Assembly: GCA_964556895.1 (NCBI GenBank)
Contig: CAZKYC010000013.1
Span: forward strand, 49-64,048
Direction: 5' to 3'
Source of the DNA: an uncultured bacterium
GTDB taxonomy: Bacteria > Hinthialibacterota > Hinthialibacteria > Hinthialibacterales > Hinthialibacteraceae
DNA length: 64,000 nucleotides
Positions 46,475 to 55,999 of the stretch are shown in pieces. The notes beneath the pieces are model-generated. The model searched no databases, was not told where the DNA came from, and worked only from the letters and a program-made list of their open reading frames with translations. The position numbers and the translations under genes are program-made. How positions within the stretch are numbered: the stretch's first letter is position 1; every line of letters starts with the position of its first letter.

Positions 46475-46516
46475 CTGTATTTAACGCTGGGCCCTTCGGG
46501 CGCGCGGATACTCTGC
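46475..46516 (+). repeat. Short hairpin repeat family E
   Basis: CTGTATTTAACGCTGGGCCCTTCGGGCGCGCGGATACTCTGC is 38/43 identical to the reverse complement of 52840-52882. Partial copies sit at 46579 and 46862. Confidence 0.8.
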
Positions 46517-46578
46517 TTATCAAACGATCTTTCTATCAAGAACTGATTGCATAATTCGTTTCCACTCATTTCATCTTC

Positions 46579-51290: not shown

Positions 51291-52178
51291 ATGGCCTATC
51301 CATACGAGATTACCCGTCGAGACTGGTTATCGTTCGCGGGCGCCGCTTGTTTGGCGCCCGCGTTTTCATTCCATGCCAACGCCCAACCTCCGCTGCGCTT
51401 CGGCATTGTCGCCGACGCCCATTATTGCGACGTTGCGCCGCGCGGATCACGCCATTACCGCGAGTCGCTCGCTAAGATGCGCGAATGCGCCGAGTTCATG
51501 AATGATGAAAAGGTTCACTTTCTCATTGAACTGGGCGACCTCAAAGACCAGGATTTAACGCCCGTCGAAGAAAATACGCTCCGCTACTTAGAACAGATCG
51601 AAGCCGAGTTCAGCCGCTTCAATGGCCCGCGCTACCACGTCTTGGGCAACCATGACCTCGACAGCATCTCAAAGCCGCAGTTTTTTGGCCGTGTTAAAAA
51701 CACAGGCGTACCGAATACAAAATCCTACTACTCGTTTGACCGCGGCAGCGTCCATTTCGTTGTTCTCGACGCCTGTTACACCTCAAGCGGCGCCGCGTAT
51801 GACCACGGCAACTTTGACTGGACCGACGCGAATATTCCACCCGATGAACTCGAATGGCTCAAACAAGACCTTCGCCAAGCGAAGGGGCCGTGTGTGGTGT
51901 TTACTCATCAACTGTTAGACGGTGAAGGGTCGGTCTATATCAAGAACGCAGAGGACGTGCGCGGCGTTCTCGAAGAATCACAAACAGTCCAAGCGGTATT
52001 TCAGGGCCATCATCATGAGGGACAATACACCAAGATCAACGGCGTTCACTATTACACCCTCAAGGCGATGGTCGAAGGCAGCGGCGCCGCGAACAACTCA
52101 TACGCCATTGTCGAGGCCAAACCCGATGGTTTAATCGTGACGGGATACCGAAAAGCCGTCAGTCAAATGATTGGCTGA
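51291..52178 (+). CDS. Tat-exported calcineurin-like metallophosphoesterase
   Basis: TRRDWL Tat motif, DAH, LGD, GNHD and GHHH. Confidence 0.9.
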   Translation: MAYPYEITRRDWLSFAGAACLAPAFSFHANAQPPLRFGIVADAHYCDVAPRGSRHYRESLAKMRECAEFMNDEKVHFLIELGDLKDQDLTPVEENTLRYLEQIEAEFSRFNGPRYHVLGNHDLDSISKPQFFGRVKNTGVPNTKSYYSFDRGSVHFVVLDACYTSSGAAYDHGNFDWTDANIPPDELEWLKQDLRQAKGPCVVFTHQLLDGEGSVYIKNAEDVRGVLEESQTVQAVFQGHHHEGQYTKINGVHYYTLKAMVEGSGAANNSYAIVEAKPDGLIVTGYRKAVSQMIG

Positions 52179-52216
52179 CGGCGTTCTAGACCAGCGCCTC
52201 ATGGCGGAACAGGCGC

Positions 52217-52603
52217 TTAGATCGATTGCGGCGGCTGGGTGCGTTCAATTCGCGGCAACAGCGAGTCAATCAACCCAAAGCGATAGTCGTTGCCGACCTT
52301 CCAGATATACAAGAACGCCACCGTAGCGACCAAGAGAAACCCGACCAGACAGACCGCAAACCCACGGCGAATGTAGCGCTGCTGGTTGTCCGTAAACCAT
52401 CGCGCGTGTTTGGCCAACACGTCGGCTTCATAGGCTTCGTCTTCAGGCCCAAACGCCACTTGCGCCATTTCGGGCGGGATGCGCCCCGGCAACAGCGGCG
52501 GCACATGGCCGGCGTCAAGCGCCTTCAGGCGCCATACCAACCACGGGTTGCGGGTGGCCATCAGATACATTTCGCTCTGATTTTGGTTTTTTTCGTTGGA
52601 CAT
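52217..52603 (-). CDS. Small single-pass membrane hypothetical protein (128 aa)
   Basis: AAGAGGGT RBS before the ATG at 52603 and TM GFAVCLVGFLLVATVAFLYIW. Confidence 0.65.
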   Translation of the reverse strand: MSNEKNQNQSEMYLMATRNPWLVWRLKALDAGHVPPLLPGRIPPEMAQVAFGPEDEAYEADVLAKHARWFTDNQQRYIRRGFAVCLVGFLLVATVAFLYIWKVGNDYRFGLIDSLLPRIERTQPPQSI

Positions 52604-52624
52604 GGTCTTACCCTCTTTCATCAA

Positions 52625-53136
52625 ACAACTACGGCTTATGTCTCACGGCGTCGCCCAGACAGAACCATGAAACCGTTTCCCCGAACGTTACTTCGGGAGC
52701 GAACGCGTATCACCACACAGTGGTGTTGTTACTCGATGTAGGAGAAAACCTCCGTGTTTTCCCCTACATTCAAACGCCGGCGATTGGTCCGAATGTACGT
52801 CATATCTTCTTTCAATCGTCCACTTTGCCGCTGTGATTCGCAGAGTATCAGCGCGCCCGAAAGGGCCCAGCGCTGGATACAGCAAGCAAAACCCGAACGA
52901 CACGTTTTGCTTAGCGCATCACAGATACTGTGTTCACACAGTGGAGTGTTTCGCTCGGTAACGCAACCAGAGATTGCGTGTCGTCGAACCAATCCGACTC
53001 CCTCAAAACCTCAATCAAGTCTTCGCCAATCGGCGAAGAAACTGGCCCCGCATTGTTGATGGGCGCTTCAAGCGATAATGCGGAGCCCGTTCGGTCGCAC
53101 CCGAATACCTGAAGCGCTTTCCAGAATCGTCAACGC
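52625..53136 (-). ncRNA. Candidate large structured ncRNA or leader RNA, family unknown
   Basis: About 10 helices, including an 11-bp long-range helix (52782-52792/52984-52994) and two 8-bp loop pairings. Several mismatches become G-U pairs only on the minus strand. An upstream sigma54 motif is present. Confidence 0.55.
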
Positions 53137-53147
53137 ATATATATAAG

Positions 53148-53162
53148 GCAACCGCCATACCA
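53148..53162 (-). promoter_or_regulatory. Putative sigma54 (-24/-12) promoter
   Basis: Minus strand TGGTATGGCGGTTGC fits TGGYAYR-N4-TTGC with exact GG-N10-GC spacing. Confidence 0.6.
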
Positions 53163-53288
53163 AGCCGGCATGAAAAAAAGAGAAGTTTGTAACCTTTTTT
53201 GTTTCAGCGAGTTATAATCAGGATGCGGTATAGCCCCGAATGAGGTCATACGCCTGACCTATGGCAATTATTTCCGGACGCAGACTTG

Positions 53289-54485
53289 ATGAGTCAAAAA
53301 TTTCCTGATACAGCCTTCGCCATACCATTGGGCTTATACCTTCACCTGCCATATTGCCAGACAAAGTGCACGTATTGTTCGTTTGTATCGGGCGCGCCTC
53401 AGTCTGACAGCGAGATCGACCGCTATTTGGATGCGCTGATTGTCCACCTGCGGTCTGGCGCGCGTTTGGCCGAAGATCGCGAGTTAACCACCGTTTTTCT
53501 TGGCGGCGGCACGCCCAGCCTGATGGGGGCTGAGCGGCTAGTGCGATTATTCGAGGCCGTCCACGATGCGTATTCAGTCTCAGCCAGGGCAGAAATCACC
53601 ATCGAAGCCAACCCCGAAAGCGCGACTCAGGAACTGGTTGAGGCGCTGCGCCCGCTTGGCCTTAACCGCGTCAGTTTAGGCGTGCAGTCGTTTCATGAGG
53701 ACGAGTTAGCGTGGCTGGGGCGAGTGCATTCAGTTGCCGGCGTCTACCGCGCTATCGAAGCGGCGCGCGCCGCGGGCGTCGACAACCTCTCGCTCGATCT
53801 CATCTTTGGGCTGCCCAATCAAAGCGAAGGGCGCTGGCGCCAGTCGGTCGAACGCGCCATCGCCTGCGGCATCGACCACTTTTCGTCGTATGCGCTGTCA
53901 TATGAAGAGGGCACGCGGCTTCACCGCCTGCTTAAACAAAACAAGATTGCTCCAGCAGACGATGAGCGCTATGAAGCGATGTATATCGGCCTTCGCGAGA
54001 TGATGGCCGAGGCGGGCTTCGAGCAGTATGAACTCTCAAATTGGGCCAAACCCGGTAGGCGCTGTGAACACAACTCAATCTATTGGCGGCGCGATGACTA
54101 TCTAGCCTTTGGCGTCTCGGCCCACGGGTGGATCAATGGGTTGCGCTATGGCCTGGTCAGAAACCCCAATCAATATGTTGAACTCATCGAAAACTCAAAG
54201 CCTGACCAAACCGTTTTACCGTTTGGAGAACCATTGTTAGACGAACACAAAACGCTCTCCTCAGACGAAGCGGCGTCAGATGCTATGATCTTCGGGCTGC
54301 GAATGACAGACGGCGTTGACCTGGCCGCGTTTGAATCGCGGTATGGATTCACGCCGTTTGAGCGCTGGAGCGCTGCCATTCAAACATTGCAAAATAGAGG
54401 GTTAATTGGCTCTAACGGCCAGCGCGTCTGGCTGACGCCAGAGGCCTACTTTATCAGCAACGAAGCCCTGGTGCATTTTTTGTAG
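53289..54485 (+). CDS. hemW: Radical SAM heme chaperone HemW (HemN-like)
   Basis: LYLHLPYCQTKCTYCSF, GGGTPS, IEANP, RVSLGVQSF, YELSNW and HNSIYW motifs. Confidence 0.9.
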   Translation: MSQKFPDTAFAIPLGLYLHLPYCQTKCTYCSFVSGAPQSDSEIDRYLDALIVHLRSGARLAEDRELTTVFLGGGTPSLMGAERLVRLFEAVHDAYSVSARAEITIEANPESATQELVEALRPLGLNRVSLGVQSFHEDELAWLGRVHSVAGVYRAIEAARAAGVDNLSLDLIFGLPNQSEGRWRQSVERAIACGIDHFSSYALSYEEGTRLHRLLKQNKIAPADDERYEAMYIGLREMMAEAGFEQYELSNWAKPGRRCEHNSIYWRRDDYLAFGVSAHGWINGLRYGLVRNPNQYVELIENSKPDQTVLPFGEPLLDEHKTLSSDEAASDAMIFGLRMTDGVDLAAFESRYGFTPFERWSAAIQTLQNRGLIGSNGQRVWLTPEAYFISNEALVHFL

Positions 54486-54495
54486 AAAATACTGG

Positions 54496-54540
54496 CCCCC
54501 TCTAGTTCCTCTTCTCCCAAAGTTGGAGGGGGGGAGGGGG
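54496..54540. repeat. Degenerate C/G-tract REP-like palindrome
   Basis: CCCCCTC..CTCCCAAAGTTGGAGGGGGGAGGGGG, similar in style to 25478 and 28631. Confidence 0.55.
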
Positions 54541-54576
54541 CAAATCAACGGCTTATTCAGTCTCGATACTGACTTT

Positions 54577-55242
54577 ATGCGACGGTTCTATCAGATTACG
54601 ACAGATAAATTAAACAACTTTCTCTGGGGCCGGGCGCTGGTTGGCCACCTCTCGCGCTATCGGCTTGTCTATGAAAATGTTGAAGCGCTTTACATCGCGC
54701 TGATCTTGGCGTTGTTCATCAAAAGTTTTCTGTTTGAGGCCTATAAGATTCCATCAGCGTCCATGCATGACACCCTGCTCGAAGGCGACCGCATCTTCGT
54801 CAACAAGATGGTGTACAACATATGGGACGTCTCAGTCGGCGACATCGTAGTCTTCAAAACCAAAGGCATCGCCCCCATCGATGAACCAGACAAGCCCTAT
54901 TACATCAAGCGCGTGGTCGGCCTGCCCGGCGATCTGGTAGAAATTCGCGACGGCTACATCTATCGCAACGGCGAGCGGACTAAAACGCCGCCGTTTTTTC
55001 GCGAGAATTACTACATCCCAATTGATAATTTCAAGCGTTTGTTTGAAGTGCCGCCGGGACAGGTATACGTTTTTGGCGATAACAGTTTTAATAGTCATGA
55101 CAGCCGCGCCTGGGGCGGGGTTCCAATTGAGAACCTGGTCGGCAAAGCGTTTTTTCGCTTTTTCCCGCTTGACCGCGTCGGCCTGATTGAGGGCGCGCCG
55201 CCAGTTCGCGCCAGCGTACGCCGCCAGTTGGAGTTTGACTAG
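54577..55242 (+). CDS. lepB: Signal peptidase I, paralog 1
   Basis: IPSASM (catalytic Ser), YIKRVVG (Lys) and GDN..NSHDSR. Confidence 0.93.
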   Translation: MRRFYQITTDKLNNFLWGRALVGHLSRYRLVYENVEALYIALILALFIKSFLFEAYKIPSASMHDTLLEGDRIFVNKMVYNIWDVSVGDIVVFKTKGIAPIDEPDKPYYIKRVVGLPGDLVEIRDGYIYRNGERTKTPPFFRENYYIPIDNFKRLFEVPPGQVYVFGDNSFNSHDSRAWGGVPIENLVGKAFFRFFPLDRVGLIEGAPPVRASVRRQLEFD

Positions 55243-55306
55243 AAGTCGCCATGACGTTTTGGTTGAATGAAACCTAAGATTGAGTAGCACTAATGAGGAT
55301 ATCGCC

Positions 55307-55999
55307 ATGATGCGCTTTTATGCTTATGTTGCTGAAAAGATGAAAAACTACTTGTGGGGGCGCGCCGCGCTCAACCACATCTCGCGCCACAGATGGTTTT
55401 ACGCCAACTTTGAGGCGCTCTATACCTCGTTGGTCATCGTCTTGATAGTAACAGCGTATATCATCATCGCCTACAAGATTCCATCGGCGTCGATGCATGA
55501 CACCCTGCTCGAAGGCGACCGCATCTTTGTCGCCAAGTTTTTGTATAATTTTAACGACGTTGAAGTCGGCGACGTGATCGTGTTTCGCACCAAGGGAATC
55601 GAAGAGATTTATGAAGCCGACAAGCCCTATTACATCAAGCGAGTGGTTGGCCTTTCCGGCGATGAGATCCGCATTCACAACGGGTTCATCTACCGCAACG
55701 GCGAGTTGCTCAGCGAGCCGGATTTCTTCTTAAAAAATTATTACGTTCCCTATCGGTCTAGATCACGGTTTATTGTGCCTGAGGGCGAGGTGTTTGTGTT
55801 TGGCGACAATAGTTACAACAGCCGCGATAGCCGCGATTGGGAGGGCGTCCCAATTGAGAACGTGGTCGGCAAGGCGTTTTTTCGCTTTTGGCCGCTGAGC
55901 CGGGTCGGCCTGTTAGAGGGCGTTCCGCCCGAACGCGCCCGCATCAACCGCGACAACGCCCCGCCGCCGTTGACCTCCAGCGTCTTTCAAAACGGATAG
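55307..55999 (+). CDS. lepB: Signal peptidase I, paralog 2
   Basis: Same motifs; tandem paralog. Confidence 0.93.
   Translation: MMRFYAYVAEKMKNYLWGRAALNHISRHRWFYANFEALYTSLVIVLIVTAYIIIAYKIPSASMHDTLLEGDRIFVAKFLYNFNDVEVGDVIVFRTKGIEEIYEADKPYYIKRVVGLSGDEIRIHNGFIYRNGELLSEPDFFLKNYYVPYRSRSRFIVPEGEVFVFGDNSYNSRDSRDWEGVPIENVVGKAFFRFWPLSRVGLLEGVPPERARINRDNAPPPLTSSVFQNG

What the first reader, a model, noticed from the sequence alone, without database searches (positions are those of the whole stretch)
52217..53260. Candidate undescribed system: a sigma54-driven ~500-nt highly structured RNA upstream of a small membrane protein
Seen: the gap between the membrane-protein gene and hemW is packed with helices. 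These are 52680-52697; 52711-52725; a 14-bp stem at 52736-52769; a multibranch domain closed by 52831-52841/52914-52924 that contains 52845-52880 and AAGCAAAAC/GTTTTGCTT; 52927-52942; 52961-52979; 53020-53039; 53044-53054/53077-53087; and 53090-53105. An 11-bp long-range helix (52782-52792 with 52984-52994) encloses about 190 nt. In three helices a plus-strand A-C mismatch is a G-U pair on the minus strand; one possible stem extension favours the plus strand instead. A -24/-12 motif points into the region on the minus strand (predicted start near 53136). The putative transcript runs to the RBS of a 128-aa single-TM protein. I see no hallmarks of RNase P RNA, tmRNA or a group II intron, and it does not look like a riboswitch I recognise. 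Inference: a large ncRNA or regulatory leader coupled to a membrane protein, loosely analogous in organisation to OLE RNA and OapA.
Basis: partly seen in the sequence, partly recalled or inferred. Interest (0 to 1): 0.85.

Follow-up and report, generated by a model that had tools for sequence, protein, structure and literature searches.

The report
Structured sigma-54 leader with CsrA-like hairpin
A long, hairpin-rich untranslated leader behind a sigma-54 promoter precedes a small membrane-protein gene, but relatives conserve only two short RNA modules in it, so it looks like a gene-specific regulatory leader rather than a large new RNA machine.

Summary
The sigma-54 -24/-12 motif at 53148-53162 (-) is also real: 29 of 30 related loci carry it, pointing at the same 128-aa single-pass membrane-protein gene. 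The ~530 nt between promoter and gene are not one conserved RNA. In relatives the leader is 130-779 nt long, and only two modules recur.

- **M1 (53044-53136, -):** a pseudoknot at the 5' end of the transcript. Both helices covary.
- **M2 (52736-52769, -):** a 14-bp hairpin whose loop fits the CsrA/RsmE consensus CANGGANG in all 21 aligned sequences.

G-U pairs outnumber A-C mismatches 72 to 13, so the RNA is read on the gene's strand. Both modules occur once per genome, only at this gene, only in one bacterial family. Rfam has no match.

The "multibranch domain" (52812-52942) holds a repeat element and is replaced by 16 nt in near-identical strains.

Best reading: a sigma-54-driven mRNA leader under post-transcriptional control, probably by the FliW-type CsrA. 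No binding or expression data exist.

The parts
53263..53277 (.). Inverted repeat (GGNAA..TTNCC type) just upstream of the hemW start, about 100-116 bp upstream of the -24 element. Candidate enhancer (UAS) for the sigma-54 activator.
   Evidence: Present at a similar distance in most related loci when printed aligned on the promoter. Function is inferred only.
53187..53209 (-). Conserved A-rich box about 25-45 bp upstream of the -24 element. Possibly a DNA-bending or activator site.
   Evidence: Recurs in most family loci. It does not fit the recalled IHF consensus spacing, so its function is unknown.
53148..53162 (-). Sigma-54-type -24/-12 promoter (TGGYAY-N5-TTGC).
   Evidence: The only match in the window. 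A relaxed form is present in 29 of 30 related loci, always pointing at the membrane-protein gene. rpoN is in the genome.
53135..53139 (-). Predicted transcription start, about 11-13 nt after the -12 GC.
   Evidence: Inferred from the usual sigma-54 spacing (recalled). The conserved M1 5' tail begins here, and its GGAAA sits 38-39 nt after the TGG in 17 of 17 M1-bearing loci.
53117..53136 (-). M1 5' tail: a conserved single-stranded stretch with an invariant GGAAA.
   Evidence: Invariant columns in alignment A2; coordinates.
53107..53116 (-). M1 helix P1, 5' strand (pairs with 53064-53073).
   Evidence: Of 11 pairs, 8 show changes on both sides; 93.0% of cells are paired.
53090..53105 (-). Small hairpin in loop L1 that carries the GUGCG motif.
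   Evidence: GUGCG occurs in L1 or L3 in 15 of 17 M1 sequences (listing). Its role is unknown.
53077..53087 (-). M1 helix P2, 5' strand (pairs with 53044-53054).
   Evidence: Of 13 pairs, 8 show changes on both sides; 94.0% of cells are paired. RNAalifold predicted it independently.
53064..53073 (-). M1 helix P1, 3' strand. It lies between the two strands of P2, giving a pseudoknot topology.
53044..53054 (-). M1 helix P2, 3' strand.
53021..53038 (-). Hairpin after M1, shared only with the same-genus genome.
   Evidence: Not found across the family.
52984..52997 (-). 5' strand of the long-range helix that closes the variable domain between M1 and M2 (pairs with 52781-52792).
   Evidence: Kept in G001 although the enclosed sequence differs. 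Contigs of runs X3 and X5 also cover both strands. Other genera have a simple hairpin or unrelated sequence here.
52812..52942 (-).
   Evidence: Contigs of runs X3 and X5 (two studies) join 52811 to 52943 with 16 other letters in place of these 131 nt.
52840..52876 (-). Core of a REP/MITE-like palindromic repeat.
   Evidence: Four further partial copies in the same genome, on contigs C5, C13, C90 and C9.
52781..52792 (-). 3' strand of the long-range helix.
52775..52782 (-). GC-rich self-complementary palindrome (core GCCGGC), 5-8 nt before M2.
   Evidence: The core is kept in 19 of 21 aligned sequences. The other two carry different GC-rich palindromes.
52736..52769 (-). M2: a 14-bp hairpin with hexaloop A-N-GGA-N closed by C-G. 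The 8-mer CANGGANG is at 52749-52756.
   Evidence: 94.2% of cells are paired, and 5 of 14 pairs change on both sides. RNAalifold predicts it. Model R1 finds one copy per genome in 17 of 35 phylum genomes, all in the family and all at this gene. Segment z is -3.87.
52680..52725 (-). Two small hairpins between M2 and the ribosome-binding site (52680-52697 and 52711-52725).
   Evidence: Shared only within the genus. In run X4, 5 of the 6 differences in this span fall in the two loops.
52611..52615 (-). Shine-Dalgarno GAGGG of the membrane-protein gene.
   Evidence: SD-like purine runs precede the chosen starts in most of the orthologues.
52217..52603 (-). Gene for a 128-aa protein: a conserved cytoplasmic N-terminal region, one hydrophobic helix at about 77-105, and a short tail.
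   Evidence: Found in 25 of 35 genomes of the phylum. No Pfam, NCBIfam or PDB relative.
53286..54485 (+). Divergent neighbour hemW (radical SAM plus HemN_C). Context only.
   Evidence: The divergent pairing is kept in 16 of 19 family loci and in G001.

Best explanation
The region is the 5' untranslated leader of a sigma-54-dependent mRNA for a lineage-specific, single-pass membrane protein. An unidentified enhancer-binding activator fires the promoter at 53148-53162 (-); it probably acts from the inverted repeat about 100-116 bp upstream. Transcription starts near 53137 and reads about 530 nt into the gene at 52603. Two RNA modules in this leader are under selection. M1 is a 5'-terminal pseudoknot with a conserved single-stranded GGAAA tail. 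M2 is a stable 14-bp hairpin that displays CANGGANG in its loop. The rest is variable, hairpin-rich filler, including a REP/MITE-like insertion. I infer that M2 is a binding site for the genome's FliW-partnered CsrA, possibly together with the GGA in the M1 tail. I further infer that CsrA binding sets mRNA stability, read-through or translation of the membrane-protein gene. Because M2 lies 46-480 nt from the start codon, it more likely acts on the mRNA as a whole than by covering the ribosome-binding site. Shown: the promoter motif and its conservation, the RNA structure with covariation, the strand, the single-copy linkage to the gene, and the composite nature of the leader. Inferred: the transcript itself, CsrA binding (my odds about 0.4-0.45), and the mode of control.
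For: 1. Promoter. TGG[ATC]A[CT]-N5-TTG[CT] is found in 29 of 30 related loci; the one miss is a contig that ends 156 nt upstream of the gene. It always points at the gene, including in two sister families whose leaders are only about 70-110 nt. rpoN is present.
2. No terminator. No sigma-70-like promoter and no minus-strand terminator-like site lies between 52605 and 53140.
3. M1. 93.6% of 404 cells are paired and 16 of 24 pairs change on both sides. 0 of 500 shuffles reach the observed values, and sliding one strand drops pairing to 28-43%.
4. M2. The hairpin is 94.2% paired. RNAalifold independently finds P2 and the M2 hairpin.
5. Strand. There are 72 G-U cells against 13 A-C cells. Pairing is 93-94% on the gene strand against 84-86% on the other strand.
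6. Specificity. Model R1 (M2) hits 17 of 35 phylum genomes, once each, all at this gene. Model R2 (M1) hits 14 genomes strongly, all at this gene. Neither hits strongly outside the family.
7. CsrA lead. All 21 M2 loops read CA-N-GGA-N-G, which matches the consensus A/U-CANGGANG-U/A quoted in PMC6849547 (passages seen). csrA is in 35 of 35 phylum genomes and sits next to fliW.
8. Flagellin parallel. In this genome, 4 of 6 flagellin leaders examined carry CA-N-GGAGG at the ribosome-binding site, and 3 carry upstream CAAGGA-N-G sites.
9. M2 stands out. It is the longest of only 17 hairpins in the genome with such a loop and 6 or more pairs. Of the other 16, 13 lie inside open frames of 200 codons or more.
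10. Replacement. The one family genome without M2 (G007, locus L020) has a GGA-rich leader, with 16 GGA against 8.5 in shuffles (1 of 200 as high), including a CAUGGAGG.
Against: - There is no expression or binding evidence of any kind.
- M2 stands 46-480 nt from the start codon. The Shine-Dalgarno of the gene has no GGA in this window, so the classic two-site repression clamp is not evident.
- The only other conserved GGA (the M1 tail) lies about 130 nt or more from M2 in the M1-bearing leaders.
- GGA is not enriched in this window's leader (8 against 9.9 in shuffles).
- The GGAGG in the M2 loop is also simply this organism's best Shine-Dalgarno sequence, so it could bind ribosomes or another protein.
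- The function of M1 is unexplained.
- M1 and M2 are each dispensable in some lineages, and sister families manage with neither.
- The sequences are related, so shuffle controls overstate significance. Only 17-21 sequences were available.
- The genome scans scored at most 150 first-look candidates per genome.
Confidence: 0.6

Rival explanations
1. M1 is a riboswitch-like aptamer. The 5' pseudoknot with conserved unpaired nucleotides would sense a small molecule or ion and change the fate of the leader, with M2 or later hairpins serving as the output.
For: M1 is a covarying pseudoknot at the very 5' end of an mRNA, with invariant unpaired positions: the GGAAA tail, and GUGCG in loop L1 or L3 in 15 of 17 sequences. 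No known family matches. GUGCG could compete for part of the 5' strand of P2 (my reading).
Against: There is no terminator or ribosome-binding-site sequestering helix at a fixed distance. The linker to M2 is 49-430 nt of unrelated sequence. M1 is absent from the five leaders L018, L024, L025/L042, L031 and L045, all of which keep M2 and the gene. There is no ligand clue from the gene, whose function is unknown.
Confidence: 0.15
2. M2 is recognised by something other than CsrA. It could be a ribosome standby or decoy site (its loop is a perfect Shine-Dalgarno sequence), or the site of another RNA-binding protein or nuclease that controls the mRNA.
For: The loop and 3' flank read GGAGG. The stem pairs an SD-like 5' arm with an anti-SD-like CUCC in the 3' arm. 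The stem sequence itself is nearly invariant, more than pairing alone needs.
Against: What is invariant in the loop is C-A-N-G-G-A-N-G rather than GGAGG: one sequence has GGAUG. The same 8-mer class marks the flagellin leaders, the textbook targets of FliW-type CsrA (PMC4894983, abstract seen).
Confidence: 0.15
3. One reading: a stand-alone, large (~500 nt) structured ncRNA that works with the membrane protein as an RNA-protein system, in the manner of OLE RNA with OapA.
For: The region has high helix density, the fold z-score is about -5, and the adjacency to a membrane-protein gene is invariant.
Against: Only about 150 nt are conserved. Length ranges from 130 to 779 nt. The centre is unmatched in the same-genus genome, and 131 nt of it are replaced by 16 nt in near-identical strains. 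Part of it is a dispersed repeat. No terminator separates it from the gene. There is no OLE or other Rfam hit.
Confidence: 0.05
4. The conserved palindromes act as DNA: operators for repressors or activators, or REP elements. No functional RNA structure would then be needed.
For: The GCCGGC palindrome and the M2 arms are inverted repeats with strongly conserved sequence. REP-like DNA does sit in this gap. Both strands fold equally well by z-score.
Against: G-U cells outnumber A-C cells 72 to 13, and pairing is 8-10 points higher on the gene strand. Compensatory changes keep the interleaved helices P1 and P2. M1 and M2 are single-copy, unlike REPs.
Confidence: 0.05

Closest known systems
CsrA-controlled flagellin mRNA leaders in FliW-CsrA bacteria (C. 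jejuni flaA, PMC4894983, abstract seen; B. subtilis hag, recalled)
   Same: A GGA motif is shown in a hairpin loop in a 5' leader. The genome has the fliW-csrA pair. This genome's own flagellin leaders carry the same CA-N-GGAGG class of site.
   Different: The gene is not a flagellin, and the promoter is sigma-54 type. The hairpin is 14 bp long and lies 46-480 nt from the start codon. No conserved second site overlaps the ribosome-binding site. Binding is untested.
RsmE/CsrA hexaloop sites such as the hcnA ribosome-binding-site hairpin (consensus A/U-CANGGANG-U/A, Schubert et al. 2007, as quoted in PMC6849547, passages seen)
   Same: All 21 M2 loops fit CANGGANG, with the first C and last G paired to close a hexaloop.
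   Different: M2 is not at a ribosome-binding site. The organism is from an uncultured phylum with a FliW-type rather than an sRNA-antagonised CsrA.
E. coli flhDC and pgaA leaders, where CsrA acts far from the start codon on RNase E access or Rho loading (recalled, not read here)
   Same: These are long leaders with GGA sites near the 5' end or mid-leader, acting on mRNA fate rather than only on initiation.
   Different: There is no evidence here for RNase E or Rho involvement. This is purely an analogy for how a distant site could work.
OLE RNA with OapA (Rfam RF01071)
   Same: Structured RNA sits next to a membrane-protein gene.
   Different: There is no model match. OLE is conserved over about 600 nt, whereas here only about 150 nt in two modules are conserved. 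The protein has one hydrophobic helix and no Pfam family.
Pseudoknot riboswitch aptamers (SAM-II, preQ1-II/III and fluoride classes; recalled)
   Same: M1 is a covarying pseudoknot at the 5' end of an mRNA with conserved unpaired bases.
   Different: No Rfam class matches. The helices are long (11 and 10-21 bp). There is no adjacent expression platform, and M1 is optional within the family.
REP / MITE-like palindromic repeats
   Same: The core 52840-52876 recurs at four other places in the genome. It sits inside a 131-nt indel that is flanked by inverted repeats.
   Different: This applies only to the insertion, not to M1 or M2, which are single-copy.

Membership tests
Sigma-54-dependent promoter | GG at -24 and GC at -12 with fixed spacing (TGGCAC-N5-TTGC type) | tested here: met
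   53148-53162 (-). The motif is in 29 of 30 related loci, oriented toward the gene.
Sigma-54-dependent promoter | rpoN encoded in the genome | tested here: met
   The Sigma54_DBD domain matches at E 6e-61 on contig C46.
Sigma-54-dependent promoter | An upstream activator (bEBP) site and activator-dependent transcription | tested here: inconclusive
   A conserved inverted repeat lies about 100-116 bp upstream. The activator is unknown. Of 14 strict promoter-like sites in the genome, only this one has such a repeat.
CsrA/RsmA binding site | GGA in the loop of a hairpin, fitting A/U-CANGGANG-U/A | tested here: met
   21 of 21 M2 loops fit. The hairpin is supported by covariation. The consensus is from PMC6849547.
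CsrA/RsmA binding site | CsrA encoded by the organism | tested here: met
   35 of 35 genomes of the phylum. It is adjacent to fliW in this genome.
CsrA/RsmA binding site | A second GGA site within reach of the dimer, typically at the ribosome-binding site | tested here: not met
   The SD of this window has no GGA. The M1-tail GGA is about 130 nt or more away in the M1-bearing leaders. M2 does not pair with the SD in the 8 leaders folded.
CsrA/RsmA binding site | Physical binding by CsrA | not testable with these tools
   No RNA-protein predictor or assay was available.
CsrB/RsmZ-type CsrA sponge RNA | Many GGA hairpins in one RNA | tested here: not met
   There is one conserved GGA hairpin. 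The window leader has 8 GGA against 9.9 in shuffles. Enrichment is seen in only 3 of 17 leaders. No Rfam hit.
OLE RNA | Match to the Rfam covariance model | tested here: not met
   0 matches at gathering score in 64 kb. Only chance hits with E 0.7 or more in 52400-53400.
OLE RNA | Large RNA conserved in sequence and structure along its whole length | tested here: not met
   Leader lengths are 130-779 nt. The same-genus genome matches only the two flanks, and near-identical strains replace 131 nt of the centre.
Riboswitch | Conserved aptamer with covariation | tested here: met
   M1: 16 of 24 pairs show changes on both sides.
Riboswitch | An expression platform (terminator or SD-sequestering helix) coupled to the aptamer | tested here: not met
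   No terminator-like site in the leader. The linker after M1 is variable, 49-430 nt.
Riboswitch | Ligand binding | not testable with these tools
   Needs in-line probing or a similar assay.
REP/MITE repeat | Multiple dispersed copies in the genome | tested here: met
   This holds only for the core 52840-52876, which has 4 other partial copies. M1 and M2 are single-copy.

The most novel reading that the evidence does not exclude
The leader is a dual-function regulatory RNA. In this reading, M1 is a new sensor (riboswitch-like or protein-binding) that decides whether the sigma-54-induced transcript persists. The M2 hairpin then acts as a decoy that titrates the flagellar CsrA. Induction of this one membrane-protein mRNA would thereby also release flagellin mRNAs from CsrA repression. 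That would be an mRNA-borne link between a sigma-54 signal and the FliW-CsrA motility circuit in an uncultured phylum.
Probability: 0.1. Interest if true: 0.7.

Novelty: new member of a known kind. Interest (0 to 1): 0.38.

Why it matters
This is a clean, covariation-supported pair of undescribed RNA motifs in a phylum known only from metagenome-assembled genomes; sources label the relatives Candidatus Omnitrophota or Candidatus Hinthialibacter. If CsrA binds M2, the target list of FliW-type CsrA would extend beyond flagellins to a sigma-54-controlled membrane protein. It would also be a case where CsrA acts far from the start codon.

The finding is a useful caution as well. A very strong folding z-score over about 500 nt arose here from a small conserved core plus repeat-element insertions, not from a large RNA. 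The reach is narrow: one bacterial family, about 25 known sequences, and a protein of unknown function.

Tried and rejected
**Rfam.** The whole window at gathering score gave nothing. The region in E-value mode gave only F6, S6-S18-Chlorobi and STnc420, all at E 0.7 or more and far below their cut-offs. Eight relatives' loci gave only a group II intron downstream of the gene in L021.

**Coding.** The seven short ORFs in the gap matched relatives only over the short M1 and M2 blocks. Two different frames hit M2, which indicates nucleotide rather than protein conservation.

**A third helix in M1.** Pairing between the M1 5' tail and loop L3 was no better than shuffled loops in most sequences, so I dropped it.

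**M2 as an anti-SD or SD-sequestering element.** In the 8 leaders folded, M2 forms on its own, and there is no consistent pairing with the ribosome-binding site.

**CsrA sponge.** GGA is not enriched in the window leader, and is enriched in only 3 of 17 leaders.

**A conserved domain between M1 and M2.** The linker is a simple hairpin in three loci and unrelated sequence of up to 430 nt in others.

**A regulon search.** Strict sigma-54 motifs combined with the upstream inverted repeat found only this locus among 14 sites, so this gave no functional clue.

**The protein.** There were no significant hits: Pfam, best E 0.086; NCBIfam; ESM Atlas, best score 0.78; PDB profile, best E 0.14. The AlphaFold2 model had mean pLDDT 68.8 and pTM 0.32. 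That is too weak for a fold search, so none was run.

**Expression.** No RNA holder was listed for the stretch. Parts of the stretch left uncovered by contigs of X3-X5 are not interpreted, except for the joint at 52811/52943.

**Limits of the searches.**
- Supplements of papers were not opened.
- No search beyond the 35 genomes of the phylum was made with the RNA models. "Restricted to one family" therefore means among those searched.
- Rows dropped before counts: L042 and L043 (99% identical to L025), L032-L038 (same genomes as family loci), and L044 (only 72 nt upstream) were left out of the alignments. L020 and L027 lack M2, by absence and by contig end respectively.
Full report
**Observation.** The 536 nt from 52605 to 53140 fold at -206.2 kcal/mol on the minus strand (z -5.23) and at -179.7 kcal/mol on the plus strand (z -5.11). 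In both cases 0 of 100 dinucleotide shuffles did as well. The structure is real, but energy alone does not pick a strand. By segment, the 14-bp hairpin region scores z -3.87, the 131-nt stretch 52812-52942 scores -3.01, the first 100 nt score -1.53 (a nested fold cannot count a pseudoknot), and 52605-52735 scores only -0.61. Rfam gives no match at gathering score in the whole window. In E-value mode there are only chance matches at E 0.7 or more.

**Gene context and relatives.** The window is contig C13 of a 4.6-Mb genome. Its GTDB phylum holds 35 species genomes. Sources label homologous records Candidatus Omnitrophota/Omnitrophica or Candidatus Hinthialibacter. The 128-aa protein has a conserved N-terminal region and one hydrophobic segment at about 77-105 in all 19 orthologues. 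It is found in 19 of 20 genomes of the family. With a profile, it is found in 25 of 35 genomes of the phylum: 18 of 19 plus the window's own genome in family f1, 4 of 4 in f2, 2 of 2 in f3, and 0 of 9 in f4-f6. Among 5.8 billion proteins only 41 clusters match, all unnamed and without Pfam domains. Pfam, NCBIfam, the PDB profile search and the ESM Atlas gave nothing. The AlphaFold2 model is weak (pLDDT 68.8, pTM 0.32). hemW lies divergently upstream in 16 of 19 family loci and in G001, with gaps of 234-979 nt.

**Promoter.** The motif at 53148-53162 (-) fits TGGYAY-N5-TTGC. One match in 64 kb is at chance level (0.84 expected). However, a slightly relaxed form is present in 29 of 30 related loci: 18 of 19 family loci, 5 of 5 metagenome contigs with enough upstream sequence, and 6 of 6 loci of the sister families. 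It always points at the membrane-protein gene. The one miss is a contig that ends 156 nt upstream of the gene. rpoN is encoded. An inverted repeat about 100-116 bp upstream (53263-53277) and an A-rich box (53187-53209) recur across loci. I read these as a possible activator site and architectural site, which is inference only. There is no sigma-70-like promoter and no minus-strand terminator-like site within the leader.

**What is conserved.** A DNA search of 41 genomes matched 12, all in the family. The matches fell in just two blocks, at the two ends of the region. The distance from promoter to ORF ranges from 130 to 779 nt.

- *Block 1 (M1, window 53044-53136).* It begins at the predicted transcript start. 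Its GGAAA lies 38-39 nt after the promoter TGG in 17 of 17 M1-bearing loci. It has two interleaved helices, P1 (53107-16 with 53064-73) and P2 (53077-87 with 53044-54), which together have a pseudoknot topology.
- *Covariation in M1.* On a MAFFT alignment of 17 sequences, 93.6% of 404 cells pair and 16 of 24 pairs change on both sides. 0 of 500 shuffles reach the observed values, and sliding the 3' strands drops pairing to 28-43%. RNAalifold finds P2 on its own.
In 21 sequences it is 94.2% paired, and 5 of 14 pairs change on both sides.
- *Strand.* G-U cells outnumber A-C cells 20:6 in P1, 22:1 in P2 and 30:6 in M2. Pairing is 93-94% on the gene strand against 84-86% on the other. The RNA is therefore read toward the gene.
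- *Copy number and range.* Covariance models find M2 once per genome in 17 of 35 phylum genomes, and M1 strongly in 14. All hits are at this gene and all are in family f1. At most 150 first-look candidates per genome were scored.
- *Exceptions.* The sister families have the promoter and the gene but leaders of only about 70-110 nt, with neither module. M1 is missing from the five leaders L018, L024, L025/L042, L031 and L045, and M2 from one genome.

**What is not conserved.** Between M1 and M2, three loci have one long hairpin, and the others have 50-430 nt of unrelated, often repeat-like sequence. In this window the long-range helix 52781-92/52984-97 closes that variable domain. The same-genus genome keeps this helix around different contents. 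The core 52840-52876 of the "multibranch domain" has four other partial copies in the genome. Contigs of two other studies (X3, X5), otherwise 90-99% alike, join 52811 to 52943 with 16 other letters in place of the 131 nt. That domain is therefore a strain-specific insertion built around a REP/MITE-like repeat. The short ORFs in the gap are not conserved as proteins.

**Mechanism.** All 21 M2 loops read C-A-N-G-G-A-N-G, with the C and the last G paired. This is the RsmE/CsrA consensus A/U-CANGGANG-U/A as quoted in PMC6849547 (passages seen).

- csrA is in 35 of 35 genomes of the phylum, and fliW is in 34 of 35. The two genes are adjacent in this genome.
- FliW-type CsrA mainly targets flagellar mRNAs (PMC4894983, abstract seen).
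- In this genome, 4 of 6 flagellin leaders examined carry CA-N-GGAGG at the ribosome-binding site, and 3 have upstream CAAGGA-N-G sites.
- Genome-wide, only 17 hairpins have such a loop and 6 or more pairs. M2 is the longest at 14 pairs, against 8 for the next. Of the other 16, 13 lie inside long open frames and one is in a flagellin leader.
- The one family genome without M2 has a GGA-rich leader that includes CAUGGAGG.

I therefore propose that CsrA binds M2, with odds of about 0.4-0.45.

Several results count against the classic clamp model. M2 is 46-480 nt from the start codon. It does not pair with the ribosome-binding site in the 8 leaders folded. The SD here has no GGA. GGA is not enriched in this leader. 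A distant site would have to act on stability or read-through, as recalled for the E. coli flhDC and pgaA leaders.

The role of M1 is open. It could be a protein or ligand sensor, or a 5' stabiliser. A proposed extra helix between its tail and loop L3 was not supported.

**Comparison and verdict.** The reading as a ~500-nt OLE-like RNA does not hold. This is a composite leader: two undescribed, gene-specific RNA motifs (no Rfam family) plus variable filler. I file it as a new member of a known kind, namely structured, probably CsrA-controlled mRNA leaders.

Noticed in passing
window 53263-53277, and the same place in most related loci: An inverted repeat of the GGNAA..TTNCC type lies just before the hemW start. 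It sits about 100-116 bp upstream of the sigma-54 motif, in two distance classes about one helical turn apart. It could be the activator site, or a hemW control element.
   Followed up: partly
window 52840-52876; also G000 C5:78868-78918, window about 46475-46522, C90:17602-17633 and C9:27806-27851: A palindromic repeat of about 45 nt with a GC-rich hairpin core occurs at 5 or more places in the genome. Two copies have short flanking inverted repeats (REP/MITE-like).
   Followed up: partly
G000 contigs C75, C48 and C108 (loci L096-L101): There are seven flagellin-N matches with open frames of about 800-900 codons. Four of the six leaders examined show the two-site CsrA pattern: a CA-N-GGAGG at the ribosome-binding site, and in three an upstream AAGGA hairpin. 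One leader has a sigma-28-like GCCGATA about 200 nt upstream.
   Followed up: partly
L021:1998-2156 (+): A group II intron D1-D4 match (68.9 bits, E 1.5e-17) lies just downstream of the membrane-protein gene in genome G003.
   Followed up: no
L019 (G011) leader, the last ~200 nt before the ORF: There is a run of GGAA/GGGAAAC motifs every 15-25 nt. The leader has 22 GGA against 15 in shuffles (1 of 200 as high). This looks more like a CsrA sponge than the window's own leader does.
   Followed up: no
window 54523-55242 and 55280-55999: Two tandem paralogous ORFs of 239 aa lie downstream of hemW, with closely similar sequences. I took them for signal peptidase I by eye and did not test this.
   Followed up: no
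L022, L024, L029 and L063-L066 leaders and flanks: Other genera carry their own GC-rich palindromic repeats (for example runs of C, then AAGCTT or GGG, then runs of G) inside or beside the same leader. This gap seems to be a frequent landing place for such elements.
   Followed up: no
window 52160-52216: A GC-rich hairpin without a U-run lies between the convergent ends of the membrane-protein gene and the metallophosphoesterase gene. It is possibly a shared terminator.
   Followed up: no
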